From IMG/VR virus record IMGVR_UViG_2778261424_000010, positions 1 through 41,171 of that record: a stretch of DNA of 41,171 nucleotides. One strand, written 5' to 3'. Positions 4,957-24,869 of this stretch are shown in pieces (positions within the stretch are counted from its first letter, which is position 1; each line of letters begins with the position of its first letter). The position numbers were made by a program, and so were the translations under genes. Source of the stretch: a virus. Its lineage: Duplodnaviria; Heunggongvirae; Uroviricota; Caudoviricetes. The notes beneath the pieces were generated by a model. The model was not told the DNA's origin and made no database searches. It saw only the letters and a program-made list of their open reading frames with translations.

Positions 4957-4977
4957 TAAAAAACCCGCCGGAGCGGG
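4957..4977 (-). terminator. Rho-independent terminator downstream of orphan 222-aa gene
   Basis: Minus-strand hairpin CCCGCTCCGGCGGG followed by U-tract (plus strand AAAAAACCCGCCGGAGCGGG). Confidence 0.55.
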
Positions 4978-5646
4978 TCATTCATTCTTTGGTATGCCGC
5001 AAAGGGCGTTTAGCGTTTCAACGGGAATGGCAAGTGCGGTGCTGGTCGCTTCACGGCGTTCCACCTCAGGCAAATATGGCACTGCCTCAGGCCACATCTC
5101 AGCCAGTTTTTTAACAGTTGAGACTTTGGTTAGAGCACCTTTAACCTGCAATTGGAAGGCATCAACTTCATCGTAAAGAACGTTGATGGTTACCGTCGAT
5201 TCAGTGAGTCGGTCGTGTAATTTTCCAACTTTCTTCAGCGTGCTGTAACTTTCAGGAACGAAACCCGAATCAATTACAGGCGCGAAGGAAGCTCCGAAGA
5301 ACAGGTCGCTTTCAAGATCGTGCTTACCAATATGTTTTCCACGGTGGCGATAGCGATGATCCAAACCGTTCCTGGCTAATTCGTGATACTCACCATTAAT
5401 AATGACCTTTAAAATTGCAGTTTTAGCGCCGACCTTCATCTTGATGAAGGAGTTATCTTTGAAATCTTCCCGAGCCTTAGTTATTTGCTCATCGCTAGTG
5501 TTTTCCTGCTTGAGCAATGCCTGTCGAATTTCTTCAACAATTTTCGCCCTCTCATTAACCGCAGCTTTCGCTTTCTCAAACAATGGGGATGCGAGAAGCA
5601 GGTTATGGCATAGCTGATTTTTAATTTCGTTGTTAAGACGAATCAT
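4978..5646 (-). CDS. Orphan 222-aa protein of unknown function in immunity-region accessory slot (candidate exclusion/defence gene)
   Basis: First ORF leftward of OL-like operators; SD GAGGGT upstream of ATG; followed by terminator; soluble, not Arg-rich; R-x4-H spacing (RNGLDH) present. Confidence 0.6.
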   Translation of the reverse strand: MIRLNNEIKNQLCHNLLLASPLFEKAKAAVNERAKIVEEIRQALLKQENTSDEQITKAREDFKDNSFIKMKVGAKTAILKVIINGEYHELARNGLDHRYRHRGKHIGKHDLESDLFFGASFAPVIDSGFVPESYSTLKKVGKLHDRLTESTVTINVLYDEVDAFQLQVKGALTKVSTVKKLAEMWPEAVPYLPEVERREATSTALAIPVETLNALCGIPKNE

Positions 5647-5692
5647 TGACTTACCCTCTGTCGTTACCCGCTGATGCGGGAGAAATGCTTTG

Positions 5693-5722
5693 TGGTGGAG
5701 TGCTACGGATTCGAACCGAAGT
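5693..5722 (-). other. tRNA 3'-end-like fragment (T-arm GGTTCGAATCC plus ...CTCCACCA); no complete tRNA
   Basis: Minus-strand reads ACTTCGGTTCGAATCCGTAGCACTCCACCA; no matching 5' acceptor strand found within 80 nt. Confidence 0.3.
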
Positions 5723-5918
5723 TTTCATGGGTGATCAGTCCATGCAGGCCCAGCCACACCCCATTACAAAACATTCCAGTTACGCACCATTGCCGCTCTC
5801 CCTGAGCCCGCCGGGCGTCCGACGCATGGTTTACTGTCGCGCCGTTCGACTGACCGAATCTCCACTTCGCCGCTGGCTAACTTCGCTCAGCTGTCGATGT
5901 TTCGTTTCGATGGGGTAA

Positions 5919-5999
5919 ATTTAGCGTGATGCTAAATTATGCGCAATAGCAAAATGCTAAATTGTTGAATGGTTTTATTTAGCGTATTGATTAATAAGC
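5919..5999. promoter_or_regulatory. OL-like operator cluster (TTTAGC-N5-GCTAAA inverted half-sites)
   Basis: TTTAGCGTGATGCTAAA at 5919-5935 plus TAGCAAAATGCTAAA and TTTAGCGTATTGATTAA nearby; same motif recurs in cI-cro intergenic region. Confidence 0.5.
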
Positions 6000-6077: not shown

Positions 6078-6755
6078 TTATGGGATGTTTAGTATTTTGG
6101 CATCAACCACAACGCCGATGATTTTGCAGTTTCCATTAATTTCTAGCATTGGATATGCGGGGTTAAGGGGCTTTAGGAAGCGTCTGCCGGCATCGATTAC
6201 AAGCTTCTTAAAGGTCGCTTCGTTATCGCCTTCTAGCTTCGCGACAACCAGCTTTCCGTTGCGCGGCTCGACTTCAGGATCAACAAGTATCGCTGCTCCC
6301 TCGGGTATGCTCAGTCCAGCCGGGGAGGTCATAGAATCCCCTTTAACGTCCAGCCAGAATGAATCTTCTGAGCAGTCAACAGTCGTGTCATACCAGCGAT
6401 CTATCGCTCTTCGGTGATAAGGTTCTACAGCTTCCATCCATTGCCCCGCGCTTACCCAGCTGATTACAGGATAACTTCCTTTTGTCTCGTTCAGTCCTCG
6501 AAATGCAACGTTCGAAGGTTCTTCACTGGCGTGTAAAACATCCATCCAGCCAAAAGGCAGATCAAGCGCAGTTTCAATTTTGCGAGCCATCTTATCGCCG
6601 ATATTGCGATGAGGGTTTGGTCCCAGTAGCTGGCTAAGCGCAGCCGGACTTGTCTCGATGAGCTCGGCAAACTGCGCTTTGGTCATTCCAGACTCGTGCT
6701 GACGCTTCTCGTACAGCGCTTCCAGGTTGGCTTTTCTGATTTCTTTATTTTCCAT
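6078..6755 (-). CDS. CI-like prophage repressor (HTH plus LexA/S24 peptidase-like C-terminal domain)
   Basis: Start at internal ATG (MENKEIRK...); HTH region AQFAELIETSPAALSQL; C-terminal LVDPEVEPRNGKLVVAKLEG..ATFKKL typical of S24 autocleaving repressors; divergent from cro. Confidence 0.8.
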   Translation of the reverse strand: MENKEIRKANLEALYEKRQHESGMTKAQFAELIETSPAALSQLLGPNPHRNIGDKMARKIETALDLPFGWMDVLHASEEPSNVAFRGLNETKGSYPVISWVSAGQWMEAVEPYHRRAIDRWYDTTVDCSEDSFWLDVKGDSMTSPAGLSIPEGAAILVDPEVEPRNGKLVVAKLEGDNEATFKKLVIDAGRRFLKPLNPAYPMLEINGNCKIIGVVVDAKILNIP

Positions 6756-6770
6756 ACCTGCATTGTTACT

Positions 6771-6840
6771 GCTTTTAGCAAAATGATAAATGTGCAAATT
6801 GCTAAATGATGCTTGCGTAGTATTTAGCATAACGCTAAAC
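6771..6840. promoter_or_regulatory. OR-like operator cluster between repressor and cro
   Basis: TTTAGCAAAATGATAAA, TTGCTAAATGATGC, TTTAGCATAACGCTAAA (6823-6839) in the 116-bp divergent intergenic region. Confidence 0.55.
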
Positions 6841-6871
6841 TCCAAATCAAACGACTCACCCGGAGACACCA

Positions 6872-7105
6872 ATGAGCACTGAACTACACCGCTGGCGCAA
6901 GGCCGCCACTACCGACGAATGGGCGCAGCTCGCAAAGTTGGCTAACACGACGCCAGGTTACCTGGACCAGATCGCCTACGGAAATCGCCGGGCATCTCCA
7001 GAAATGGCATCTGCTATCGAGAAAGGCACGAAGAATTTTCACCGCCAGGCTCCGGTCCTAAAAGAAAGCCTGGTATTCGCATCGCCGCGTGATACTGCGG
7101 CCTAA
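6872..7105 (+). CDS. Cro-like HTH regulator
   Basis: 77-aa ORF divergent from repressor; HTH-like AQLAKLANTTPGYLDQIAYG. Confidence 0.6.
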   Translation: MSTELHRWRKAATTDEWAQLAKLANTTPGYLDQIAYGNRRASPEMASAIEKGTKNFHRQAPVLKESLVFASPRDTAA

Positions 7106-23636: not shown

Positions 23637-24869
23637 ATGAAATATTTTTTCAATACCCGGCTGGGGGAAACCCGTTATCAGCTGGCTGACGGCTCGCTAC
23701 TGTGCAAAGACGTGCCGATAGGTCGAACGGGTAAGCAGCTTTACGGCGCTGCCGATCTGCCAAACCTCAAACCCGACAAGCTCGGCGAGATAGTCGTAAC
23801 GCGCTCTCCTGATCAGGTATTCCATCCGGCCACGCTCGCCTCATTCGAAGGGATGAGCATCACGATCCTGCATCCTGAAGATGAAAACGGGAATGTGCGG
23901 CTGGTCAACCCCGAGAACTGGAAAGAGCTTGCGGTCGGGCATCTTCAGAACGTTCGGCGCGGGACTGGTGATCAGTCTGATTTGATGCTGGCTGACCTTA
24001 TCGTCAAAGACGAAAGCGCCATTCAGCTGATCGAAGATGGTCTGCGCGAAGTGTCGTGCGGCTATGACGCTGAGTACGAGCAGACCGAACCCGGAAAAGC
24101 CGAGCAGGTCGATATTACCGGAAACCATGTGGCTCTTGTCCCTAAAGGCAGAGCCGGAAATCGTTGTGCAATTGGAGACAGAGACACAATGGCAAATCAA
24201 AAGAAAAGCTGGTGGACCCGCATGCGCACGGCCATCAAAACGGGTGATGCTGACACCATGAACGAACTGCTGGACTCTGCGCCAGCGGCGGTAACGGGCG
24301 ATGAAGGGGATCTGCCGAGCGGCGTTAACCTCAACATTAATCTTTCACCGCAACAACCATTTCCGGACAAAAAGCCGGAAATGGGCGGAGAGCCAACCGG
24401 CGACGGCGAGGACGATATCAAAACCTTGCTCAAAGCCCTGCTGGCTAAGCTGGAAGGTACTGCAACGGGCGATAACGACGATAAGCCTGACGGCAAAGAT
24501 AACAAAGACCCTACCGGCGACGGTGAGGACGACGAAGAGGAAACCACGATTACCGGTGACGCTGCTTATCGTGCCGAAGTTATCGTTCCGGGTATCGATC
24601 TGAGCCGTAAGGTGAAACCGACCGCGTTCAAACGTGATGTGCTGTCCGCCGCTGACAAAACACTGGTTCGCCAGGTTGTCGGTGATGCAGATATCCGCAA
24701 ATTGCCCAAGCAATCGGTCGATATGGCGTTTAACGCCGTGTCTGAGATTGCCAAAGGGCGAAACACCCGCAGCACCACGGGCGATGCACAACGTCCAAAT
24801 ATGGGCATGACCAGCATCGCTTCCCTGAACAAACAAAACGCCGACTTCTGGTCTAACCGCAAAGGATAA
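23637..24869 (+). CDS. Putative scaffold/prohead protein with acidic linker
   Basis: 410-aa ORF; D/E/G-rich low-complexity middle; position before capsid genes. Confidence 0.45.
   Translation: MKYFFNTRLGETRYQLADGSLLCKDVPIGRTGKQLYGAADLPNLKPDKLGEIVVTRSPDQVFHPATLASFEGMSITILHPEDENGNVRLVNPENWKELAVGHLQNVRRGTGDQSDLMLADLIVKDESAIQLIEDGLREVSCGYDAEYEQTEPGKAEQVDITGNHVALVPKGRAGNRCAIGDRDTMANQKKSWWTRMRTAIKTGDADTMNELLDSAPAAVTGDEGDLPSGVNLNINLSPQQPFPDKKPEMGGEPTGDGEDDIKTLLKALLAKLEGTATGDNDDKPDGKDNKDPTGDGEDDEEETTITGDAAYRAEVIVPGIDLSRKVKPTAFKRDVLSAADKTLVRQVVGDADIRKLPKQSVDMAFNAVSEIAKGRNTRSTTGDAQRPNMGMTSIASLNKQNADFWSNRKG

What the first reader, a model, noticed from the sequence alone, without database searches (positions are those of the whole stretch)
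5693..5760. tRNA 3'-end-like fragment in the leader between OL and the orphan gene
The minus strand reads ...ACTTCGGTTCGAATCCGTAGCACTCCACCA, a T-loop consensus (GGTTCGAATCC) followed by an acceptor-3'-strand-like stretch ending CCACCA. I could not find a complementary 5' acceptor strand (GGAGTGC) in the preceding 80 nt, so this is not a complete tRNA gene. Such 3' tRNA fragments are typical of att-site cores left by tRNA-targeting integrases, so this may mark an old integration or module-exchange scar delimiting the orphan-gene cassette; a structured leader RNA is the alternative.
Basis: partly seen in the sequence, partly recalled or inferred. Interest (0 to 1): 0.5.

Follow-up and report, generated by a model that had tools for sequence, protein, structure and literature searches.

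The report
tRNA-shaped RNA module in phage leader
The supposed tRNA fragment is a complete tRNA-shaped RNA element in the early-left leader of a phi80/HK639-like prophage, and it is one of about 27 interchangeable RNA cassettes (others mimic a true tRNA or 16S rRNA helix 11) that sit in one conserved hairpin frame and are probably cut out by RNase P.

Summary
The sequence is there, but it is not a fragment. ARAGORN calls a 70-nt tRNA at 5693-5762(-). Rfam's tRNA model does not, because the D arm is a 3-bp mini-hairpin and the anticodon loop is non-canonical.

The att-scar reading fails. No host tRNA or tmRNA shares this 3' half, the window holds no second copy, and near-identical copies (the window differs from the commonest version at two bases) sit in the same leader position in phage HK639, one E. 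coli prophage and 18 viral contigs.

The element lies inside a conserved 17-21 bp RNA helix (97% paired, compensatory changes, G.U-rich on the transcribed strand). Across 199 loci that helix encloses about 27 unrelated bodies. Each body is closed by an acceptor-like stem followed by a purine and CCA. One body is a bona fide Rfam tRNA and one is a 16S helix-11 mimic.

The window's allele matches the E. coli RNase P consensus: A(-2)U(-1)/G(+1), a 12-bp stack, a T loop and ACCA. The most likely role is RNase P-dependent processing of the pL transcript, releasing a tRNA-like RNA. Any function in trans is unknown. A link to the phi80 "M3" RNA is plausible but unverified.

The parts
6078..6872 (-). 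LexA/cI-like repressor gene (HTH_3 + Peptidase_S24); context only
   Evidence: ORF; Pfam PF00717 E=2e-29 and PF01381
6038..6059 (-). Intrinsic terminator after the repressor gene, upstream of OL/pL
5918..5962 (-). OL operator palindromes (AATTTAGC-N5-GCTAAATT type) overlapping the putative pL (-35 TTGCGC 5946-5941, -10 TAAATT 5923-5918, start near 5911)
   Evidence: Read. Positioned by alignment to HK639's annotated 'putative pL'. Inference only; the consensus promoter scan found nothing here.
5790..5911 (-). 5' leader of the pL transcript, about 95% identical to the HK639 pL leader. It includes only the first ~56 nt of HK639's annotated 126-nt 'putL-like antiterminator RNA'.
5763..5775 (-). 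5' strand of the basal frame helix (AAUGUUUUG) plus the proximal leader UAAU; A(-2)U(-1) precede the predicted RNase P site
   Evidence: RNase P leader preference from PMC10731613
5693..5762 (-). tRNA-like body: acceptor 5' strand 5762-5756; mini D hairpin 5755-5747; anticodon-like arm 5744-5726 (5 bp, 9-nt loop ACUGAUCAC); variable region 5725-5721; T arm 5720-5704 (loop UUCGAAU; U.U mismatch at 5719/5705); acceptor 3' strand 5703-5697; A73 5696; CCA 5695-5693. G3.U70 = 5760/5699.
   Evidence: ARAGORN; sequence; folding
5684..5692 (-). 3' strand of the basal frame helix (CAAAGCAUU), which pairs with 5775-5767
5667..5680 (-). Conserved tail hairpin CCCGCAUCAGCGGG, part of a portable translation-initiation module
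5644..5658 (-). Shine-Dalgarno GAGGG (5658-5654) and ATG (5646-5644) of the first pL gene
4978..5646 (-). First pL gene, 222 aa, Nmad5 family (the 'orphan gene' of the finding)
   Evidence: Pfam PF18757 E=9.8e-31; phrog_1965 E=2.7e-49
4962..4979 (-). Intrinsic terminator closing the pL-proximal unit

Best explanation
The element is a complete tRNA-shaped RNA module transcribed as part of the early-left (pL) leader. It sits between the antiterminator-type leader and the ribosome-binding site of the first pL gene (Nmad5 family). It is one allele ('type A') of a hypervariable family of structured RNA cassettes found in phi80/HK639-like temperate phages of Enterobacteriaceae. All alleles share a conserved frame: a lower helix AAUGUUUUGG/CCAAAGCAUU, then an acceptor-like upper stem whose 3' strand is followed by a purine and CCA. 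The body enclosed by the frame is swapped between about 27 unrelated structures.

Most likely mechanism (inferred, not shown): the nascent RNA folds, and E. coli-type RNase P recognises the 7+5 bp acceptor/T-stem stack, the T loop and A73-CCA, then cuts between U5763 and G5762. tRNA-type 3' processing trims back to CCA (5693). This 'punctuation' would separate the leader from the downstream mRNA, leaving the mRNA to begin just upstream of the conserved hairpin 5680-5667. It would also release a ~70-nt tRNA-like RNA. That RNA carries the AlaRS identity elements G3.U70/A73 but has no usable anticodon loop.

Shown here: the anatomy, the conservation, the RNA-level helix, the modular family, and the mismatch with att-site expectations. 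Inferred: cleavage by RNase P, any stabilising role of the 5' hairpin, and any activity of the released RNA in trans.
For: Anatomy: ARAGORN calls a tRNA at 5693..5762(-), against a false-positive rate of 0.02 per shuffled window. The acceptor stem has 7 pairs, and the T loop is GGUUCGAAUCC.

Conservation: 16 of 20 type-A loci carry an identical 96-nt sequence, including phage HK639. In that majority allele the minimum-energy fold is a cloverleaf.

Frame: every cassette type folds into a 17-21 bp basal helix. On 32 distinct frames 97.1% of cells are paired, against 85.4% in shuffles (0 of 500 reach it) and 30-45% in slid registers. Five pairs show changes on both sides, covering 51 cells. There are about 38 G.U cells against 3 A.C cells, so the helix is RNA on the transcribed strand. 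The 92-nt hairpin in the window has z = -2.5 and the phi80 version has z = -3.1.

tRNA reading of the frame: the L063 cassette uses the frame's upper stem as its acceptor and scores 36.3 bits on Rfam tRNA, above the gathering score of 29, with E = 1.3e-6. T-loop motifs occur in 5 types.

RNase P determinants, as stated in PMC10731613: a 12-bp stack, the T-psi-C loop, 3' RCCA, U(-1)/G(+1), and optimal A(-2)U(-1). The window allele has all of them. G(-2)G(-1) leaders paired to the CCA, as in the general frame, also occur in natural E. coli pre-tRNAs.

Precedent: E. coli RNase P cleaves the phage leader RNAs phi80 M3, P1/P7 C4 and P4 CI. phi80 carries a homologous frame upstream of N.

Transcription context: no terminator lies between pL and the element.

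Modularity: cassette type reassorts freely with the upstream context and the downstream gene.
Against: There are no expression or cleavage data. Rfam's tRNA model does not recognise the window element. Within type A there is no compensatory variation, and the window allele carries a U.U mismatch in the T stem that removes the cloverleaf from its minimum-energy fold. The distal leader and trailer form a 9-bp helix, and pairing of the 5' leader with RCCA is a known anti-determinant for RNase P. A 20-bp helix is equally a candidate RNase III site. A pure punctuation role does not explain why the bodies are large, diverse and sometimes mimic host RNAs. The phi80 M3 RNA sequence could not be obtained, so its identity with the phi80 cassette is unverified.
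Confidence: 0.55

Rival explanations
1. RNase III-type regulatory hairpin, analogous to the lambda N-leader. In this reading the ~20-bp basal helix is the functional part: a processing site that tunes translation or stability of the first pL gene. The distal body would be a tolerated, largely functionless tip that drifts and recombines, and the tRNA likeness would be incidental or a remnant of a captured tRNA.
For: A long, conserved and covarying helix sits immediately upstream of the ribosome-binding site. The element occupies the position that the RNase III hairpin holds in the lambda N leader (established knowledge), and in phi80 it lies directly upstream of N. The bodies are unrelated in sequence and reassort independently of their neighbours. 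Variation within a type is not compensatory.
Against: A purine followed by CCA is present after the upper stem in every type. The lower helix is almost invariant in sequence rather than merely complementary. At least 5 types carry T-loop motifs, and one body is a full Rfam tRNA that uses the frame as its acceptor stem. The bodies are 60-170 nt and well folded rather than decayed to minimal loops. This reading is not mutually exclusive with RNase P processing.
Confidence: 0.25
2. Host-RNA mimic or decoy acting in trans. In this reading the excised cassettes are small stable RNAs that imitate host RNAs (tRNA acceptor/T-arm, 16S helix 11). They would titrate or misdirect host factors, or defence enzymes that act on tRNA ends or rRNA. 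Diversifying selection would explain the many types.
For: The type C body matches bacterial SSU rRNA positions 237-283 at 31.3 bits, E = 5.9e-8, and is 92.5% identical to E. coli 16S 243-282 over 40 nt. tRNA-like bodies occur in types A, L063, L016 and L197. Type A carries G3.U70/A73, the alanine identity set (sequence plus established knowledge). The element is the first thing transcribed from pL and lies next to a hypervariable accessory-gene slot. The pattern is discrete types with low divergence within each type.
Against: No target is known. Most bodies match no Rfam family. Other rRNA matches are at chance level. The window allele is slightly degraded by its T-stem mismatch. Nothing shows that the RNA accumulates.
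Confidence: 0.2
3. att-site core or integration scar derived from the 3' half of a host tRNA or tmRNA gene.
For: The T-loop consensus and a ...CCACCA end are features typical of tRNA-gene att cores.
Against: The element is a complete tRNA-shaped unit. No host tRNA or tmRNA matches it in 5,426 E. coli genomes. The 3' half has 0 matches in 185,579 species-representative genomes. The window has no second copy. The element always lies inside the same conserved leader frame, far from prophage ends.
Confidence: 0.03
4. Functional decoding tRNA (tRNA-Ile GAU, as ARAGORN labels it), or an antisense immunity RNA of the P1 C4 / P4 CI type.
For: ARAGORN assigns the anticodon GAU. C4 and CI are RNase P-processed RNAs from phage leaders.
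Against: Rfam tRNA gives no hit. The D arm is 3 bp with a 3-nt loop. The anticodon loop either has C at position 37 or is 9 nt long. G3.U70 would direct alanine, not isoleucine. No Rfam C4 hit was found. The longest complementarity to the rest of the window is 11 nt, seen twice against about 2 expected by chance. The downstream target region is conserved while the cassettes vary.
Confidence: 0.04

Closest known systems
[quoted passage not shown]
   Same: It is a phage-encoded small RNA of unknown function cleaved by RNase P. phi80 carries a homologous frame with its own body directly upstream of gene N (L002 ~1238-1380).
   Different: The M3 sequence could not be retrieved, so it is not known whether M3 is the phi80 cassette. 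M3 is described as hairpin-like and lacking a T loop, whereas the window allele has a T arm.
P1/P7 C4 RNA and P4 CI RNA (Rfam C4 family)
   Same: They are cut out of a phage leader or immunity transcript by RNase P, and they have an acceptor-like stem with an RCCA-type context.
   Different: No Rfam C4 hit was found. No complementary target was found. The cassettes vary while the adjacent downstream region is conserved.
tRNA-like domain of tmRNA
   Same: It has G3.U70 with A73-CCA, a T arm, a reduced D region and no decoding anticodon arm, and it is an RNase P substrate with U(-1)/G(+1). The L016-type cassette gives a weak tmRNA hit, E = 0.006.
   Different: The element has no mRNA-like reading frame or pseudoknots. 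ARAGORN and Rfam give no tmRNA call for the window. The sequence is unrelated to ssrA.
Lambda N-leader RNase III hairpin
   Same: It is a long hairpin between the antitermination site and the ribosome-binding site of the first pL gene. In phi80 the frame precedes N.
   Different: No sequence relationship was tested or seen. The lambda hairpin is not tRNA-like and is not known to be a swap site for unrelated bodies. This comparison rests on established knowledge, not on a test made here.
tRNA punctuation and tRNA-like processing signals (mitochondrial polycistrons, MALAT1 mascRNA, bacterial YrlA Y RNAs)
   Same: A tRNA-shaped fold embedded in a longer transcript recruits tRNA-processing enzymes. 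YrlA likewise combines a long terminal stem with a tRNA-like module.
   Different: No Rfam Y RNA or YrlA hit was found. The resemblance is one of architecture only.

Membership tests
Canonical tRNA (Rfam RF00005) | Score at or above the gathering threshold of the covariance model | tested here: not met
   No hit at the gathering score or at E<=10 in a 501-nt search. By contrast, the L063 cassette in the same frame scores 36.3 bits against a threshold of 29.
Canonical tRNA (Rfam RF00005) | 7-bp acceptor stem, discriminator base and CCA | tested here: met
   G1-C72, G2-C71, G3.U70, G4-C69, U5-A68, G6-C67, U7.G66, then A73 and CCA.
Canonical tRNA (Rfam RF00005) | T arm: 5-bp stem with a 7-nt UUCRANY loop | tested here: inconclusive
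   The loop UUCGAAU is perfect. The stem is intact in 19 of 20 type-A loci (U44.G58), but the window has a U44/U58 mismatch.
Canonical tRNA (Rfam RF00005) | D arm (3-4 bp stem, 7-11 nt loop with G18G19) and a 7-nt anticodon loop with U33 and a purine at 37 | tested here: not met
   The D region is a 3-bp stem with a 3-nt loop. The anticodon-like arm has either a 9-nt loop or an A.C mismatch with C at position 37.
tRNA-gene att core / integration scar | Identity of the fragment to the 3' end of a host tRNA or tmRNA gene | tested here: not met
   No host hit in 5,426 E. coli genomes at E<=10. 0 exact matches in 185,579 representative genomes.
tRNA-gene att core / integration scar | A second, directly repeated copy marking the other junction | tested here: not met
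   Only one match in the window at <=3 mismatches, and only one frame in the window.
E. coli RNase P substrate | Sequence and structure determinants: ~12-bp coaxial stack, T-psi-C loop (optional), 3' RCCA, G(+1), U(-1) | tested here: met
   7+5 bp stack, UUCGAAU loop, A73CCA, G(+1), A(-2)U(-1). The determinants are those listed in PMC10731613.
E. coli RNase P substrate | Actual cleavage by RNase P in vitro or in vivo | not testable with these tools
   Needs a biochemical assay or 5'-end mapping in rnpA(ts) strains.
C4 antisense RNA family (P1/P7 C4, P4 CI) | Covariance-model match, and loops complementary to a target in the same operon | tested here: not met
   No Rfam hit. The longest complementarity is 11 nt, at chance level.
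tmRNA | tRNA-like domain together with a tag reading frame and pseudoknots | tested here: not met
   ARAGORN finds no tmRNA and Rfam finds none. Only G3.U70/A73 and the T arm are shared.
Leader cassette family defined here (frame AAUGUUUUG...RCCA(C)AAAGCAUU + tail) | Left flank, right flank, basal helix, purine-CCA after the upper stem, and the conserved tail hairpin and SD downstream | tested here: met
   The window at 5775-5644 has all of these features. 199 loci in 27 types share them.

The most novel reading that the evidence does not exclude
The conserved acceptor-like frame at the start of the pL operon may be a dedicated expression and processing slot for interchangeable host-RNA mimics: tRNA-like bodies, an alanine-identity minihelix, and a 16S helix-11 copy. 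RNase P and tRNA 3'-processing enzymes would excise these very early in infection. The excised RNAs would act in trans as decoys or sponges for host RNA-binding proteins, or for defence enzymes that attack tRNA ends or rRNA. This would be an RNA counterpart of the hypervariable anti-defence protein slots of phages. Under this reading the type A RNA in the window would be chargeable by AlaRS.
Probability: 0.2. Interest if true: 0.85.

Novelty: new variant of a known kind. Interest (0 to 1): 0.6.

Why it matters
If the processing model is right, a group of temperate enterobacterial phages that includes the classical phi80 and HK639 uses a tRNA-acceptor-like frame to punctuate its earliest transcript. 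The same frame has been turned into a swap site for at least 27 unrelated structured RNAs. This gives a comparative handle on the 50-year-old question of what phi80's RNase P-cleaved small RNA is for. It adds natural non-tRNA RNase P substrates with graded leader-CCA pairing. It also flags unannotated RNA genes next to a hypervariable accessory-gene slot. Neither the HK639 or phi80 GenBank records nor the RefSeq annotation of strain PEC148 marks the element. The 16S helix-11 and tRNA mimics raise the testable possibility of RNA decoys expressed at the very start of infection.

Tried and rejected
1. att-scar hypothesis. I searched E. coli genomes, species-representative genomes, the window and IMG/VR. 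No host tRNA source and no second copy were found, so it is rejected.
2. Functional tRNA or tmRNA. Rfam gathering and E-value scans were negative for the window, and ARAGORN found no tmRNA.
3. Antisense target. An exhaustive complementarity scan of the window gave only two 11-mers, which is the chance level.
4. Co-evolution with neighbours. Cassette type is independent of the upstream context and the downstream ORF. This rejects the idea that the cassette is an operator specific to the downstream protein.
5. Further host-RNA mimicry. BLAST of all bodies against the E. coli rrnB operon gave only the helix-11 match; the other 12-13 nt matches are at chance level. Rfam on the other large types gave nothing convincing.
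6. Compensatory changes within a type. None were found in type C or type A.
7. M3 RNA sequence and the HK639 and phi80 genome papers. These are not held in the library, so the M3 mapping stays open.
8. A putR-like second copy of the leader in the window. None was found by sequence.
9. The weak AgvB hit at the OL operators (E = 0.63) was judged to be chance.

Full report
**Observation.** The minus strand of the window reads GGGGUGUGGCUGGGCCUGCAUGGACUGAUCACCCAUGAAAACUUCGGUUCGAAUCCGUAGCACUCCACCA from 5762 down to 5693. Its statement that no 5' acceptor strand exists is wrong. GGGGUGU pairs with GCACUCC through five Watson-Crick and two G.U pairs, so a search for the exact complement fails. ARAGORN calls a complete 70-nt tRNA at 5693..5762(-), labelled tRNA-Ile(GAU). 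In 100 composition-preserving shuffles of the window it made only 2 calls. The 25-nt T-arm/acceptor string is unique in the window even with 3 mismatches.

Rfam's tRNA model does not match, either at the gathering score or at E<=10 in a 501-nt search. The reason is anatomical. The D arm is a 3-bp/3-nt mini-hairpin. The anticodon-like arm is a 5-bp stem with a 9-nt loop, or in ARAGORN's drawing a stem with an A.C mismatch and C at position 37. So this is a tRNA-shaped RNA, not a decoding tRNA.

**Context.** The window is a lambdoid-type prophage.
- A LexA/cI-like repressor gene lies at 6872-6078(-), followed by a terminator at 6059-6038.
- Operator palindromes and a putative pL follow. They were placed by alignment to HK639's annotated pL.
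- A ~120-nt leader comes next, about 95% identical to the HK639 pL leader.
- Then come the element, a conserved hairpin plus Shine-Dalgarno sequence, a 222-aa gene at 5646-4978, and a terminator at 4979-4962.

The 'orphan' gene is an Nmad5-family gene (Pfam PF18757, E = 1e-30; phrog_1965). No terminator separates pL from the element.

**The att-scar hypothesis fails.**
- Among 5,426 complete E. coli genomes the 70-mer hits a single prophage (strain PEC148, 100% identity). It hits no host tRNA or tmRNA even at E<=10.
- The 3' half without CCA has no exact match in one genome for each of 185,579 species.
- In IMG/VR the 3' half occurs in 19 contigs, always inside the same leader frame.
- The window has no second copy.
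- Phage HK639 carries the same element just upstream of gp44, and it is not annotated there.

**A family, not a one-off.** I scanned IMG/VR and representative genomes for the conserved downstream tail, then for two variants of the right flank. This gave 199 loci with a recognisable cassette. All share a left flank AAUGUUUUG(G) and a right flank (C)CAAAGCAUU. What lies between falls into about 27 sequence-unrelated types of 84-202 nt, and the last 75 loci added only two new types. Hosts are Escherichia, Enterobacter, Citrobacter, Pseudocitrobacter, Scandinavium and Trabulsiella.

Every type folds into a 17-21 bp basal helix closing a multi-branched body. The results for 32 distinct frames are in the table.

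| Measure | Value |
|---|---|
| Cells forming a standard pair | 97.1% |
| Same, in shuffles | 85.4% (0 of 500 shuffles reach the observed value) |
| Same, in slid registers | 30-45% |
| Pairs with changes on both sides | 5 (51 cells) |
| G.U cells | about 38 |
| A.C cells | 3 |

The excess of G.U over A.C means the helix is selected at the RNA level on the transcribed strand.

In every type the 3' strand of the upper stem is followed by a purine (A, G or GA) and then CCA. The CCA is paired to the leader's UGG (UAGU/UAAU in types A and D). The L063 cassette uses exactly this upper stem as its acceptor. It scores 36.3 bits on the Rfam tRNA model, above the gathering score of 29, with E = 1.3e-6. 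This supports reading the frame as an acceptor stem followed by NCCA.

Other bodies also resemble host RNAs:
- T-loop motifs occur in 5 types.
- L016 gives a weak tmRNA-like hit, E = 0.006.
- L197 contains an internal tRNA-Sec-like segment, E = 0.07.
- Type C (28 loci) contains a copy of 16S rRNA helix 11. It matches Rfam SSU positions 237-283 at 31.3 bits, E = 5.9e-8, and is 92.5% identical to E. coli 16S 243-282.

Cassette type reassorts freely with both neighbours. Type A precedes at least 10 different ORFs, and the Nmad5 gene is preceded by five cassette types. The tail (hairpin CCCGCAUCAGCGGG plus GAGGG plus ATG) precedes more than 60 different small ORFs, and in some loci it occurs without any cassette.

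**The window's allele.** Sixteen of 20 type-A loci share an identical 96-nt sequence. The window differs at two sites. At leader position -2 (5764) it has A instead of G. At T-stem position 58 (5705) it has U instead of G, which creates a U.U mismatch. The majority allele's minimum-energy fold is a cloverleaf; the window's is not. The whole 92-nt hairpin is still more stable than shuffles (-30.9 kcal/mol, z = -2.5).

**Mechanism.** The determinants of E. coli RNase P substrates, as summarised in PMC10731613, are these:
- a ~12-bp acceptor/T-stem stack;
- the T-psi-C loop;
- 3' RCCA, which pairs with the P15 loop of RNase P RNA;
- G(+1) and U(-1), with A(-2)U(-1) optimal.

Pairing of the leader with RCCA slows cleavage, but it occurs in natural pre-tRNAs that have G(-2)G(-1). 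The window allele has all the positive determinants: UAAU|G, a 7+5 bp stack, UUCGAAU and ACCA. The general frame has the G(-2)G(-1) arrangement. E. coli RNase P is known to cut other phage leader RNAs: phi80 M3, P1/P7 C4 and P4 CI. phi80 carries a homologous frame with its own body directly upstream of N.

I therefore propose that RNase P cleaves between U5763 and G5762, and that tRNA-type 3' processing trims to CCA. This would separate the leader from the Nmad5 mRNA, whose new 5' end would lie just before a conserved hairpin, and it would release a ~70-nt tRNA-like RNA. These steps are inferred, not shown. G3.U70 with A73 is the established alanine identity set (known from tRNA-Ala, tmRNA and minihelix work), so the released RNA could be an AlaRS substrate. 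This feature is specific to type A and is not a property of the family.

**Rivals.** A lambda N-leader-like RNase III hairpin with a functionless tip explains the long helix and the position. It does not explain the universal purine-CCA, the near-invariant lower helix, or the repeated tRNA-like bodies. It may well coexist with RNase P cleavage. A decoy or mimic acting in trans is the most novel reading the data allow. An antisense (C4/CI-like) role finds no support: the longest complementarity elsewhere in the window is 11 nt, seen twice against about 2 expected by chance.

**Novelty and limits.** None of the records examined annotates the element, and Rfam 15 has no family for it. Full-text searches found no description of it. 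Only the first ~56 nt of HK639's annotated putL-like feature are shared with the window, so whether this phage uses put-type antitermination remains open. All functional statements await RNA-end mapping and nuclease genetics.

Noticed in passing
window 4978-5646 (-): The 'orphan gene' downstream of the element is not an orphan. It belongs to the Nmad5 family (nucleotide modification associated domain 5, PF18757, E = 1e-30; phrog_1965).
   Followed up: partly
L043 4902-4948 (-), and 27 other loci of cassette type C: The body of this cassette type is a near-consensus copy of 16S rRNA helix 11 (Rfam SSU positions 237-283, E = 5.9e-8). Its stem carries UUGG/CCAA where E. coli 16S has UAGG/CCUA, so it differs from the E. 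coli version (Rfam consensus alignment; E. coli rrsB).
   Followed up: partly
L063 11356-11426 (+): This cassette is a bona fide tRNA by Rfam (36.3 bits) with a truncated anticodon arm. Its acceptor stem is the conserved frame helix itself.
   Followed up: partly
window 5644-5692 (-), and >130 loci: The tail CAUUUCUCCCGCAUCAGCGGGUAACGACAGAGGGUAAGnnAUG is a portable translation-initiation linker. It precedes more than 60 different small ORFs, and in some contigs it follows a coding gene with no RNA cassette.
   Followed up: partly
window 5866-5911 (-); L002 1007-1052; L001 1507-1552: The first ~45 nt of the pL transcript (CCAUCGAAACGAAACAUCGACAGCUGAGCGAAGUUAGCCAGCGGCG) are nearly identical in N/nut-dependent phi80 and in put-type HK639 and this window. 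Their function is unknown.
   Followed up: no
window 5790-5845 (-) vs L001 1576-1701: Only the first ~56 nt of HK639's annotated 126-nt putL-like antiterminator RNA are present in the window. After that the window runs straight into the cassette frame. No putR-like second copy was found by sequence.
   Followed up: partly
window 23967-23977 (+): An 11-nt stretch, GGUGAUCAGUC, is perfectly complementary to the anticodon-like loop of the element. Two 11-mers of this kind were found and about two are expected by chance.
   Followed up: yes
L142 and L148 (Methanomicrobiales / Methanolinea MAG contigs): Two archaeal MAG records contain the enterobacterial prophage tail sequence. This is probably binning contamination.
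   Followed up: no
window 5934-5978 (-): There is a weak Rfam hit to the AgvB anti-sRNA (18.1 bits, E = 0.63) over the OL operator region. It is probably chance.
   Followed up: no
L008, L012, L015, L120 (upstream of the tail): Some phi80-like leaders lack the canonical frame. In the same position they carry a different hairpin (CCAGUCCAUUCGAAGUUGAGUGGGCUGG).
   Followed up: no
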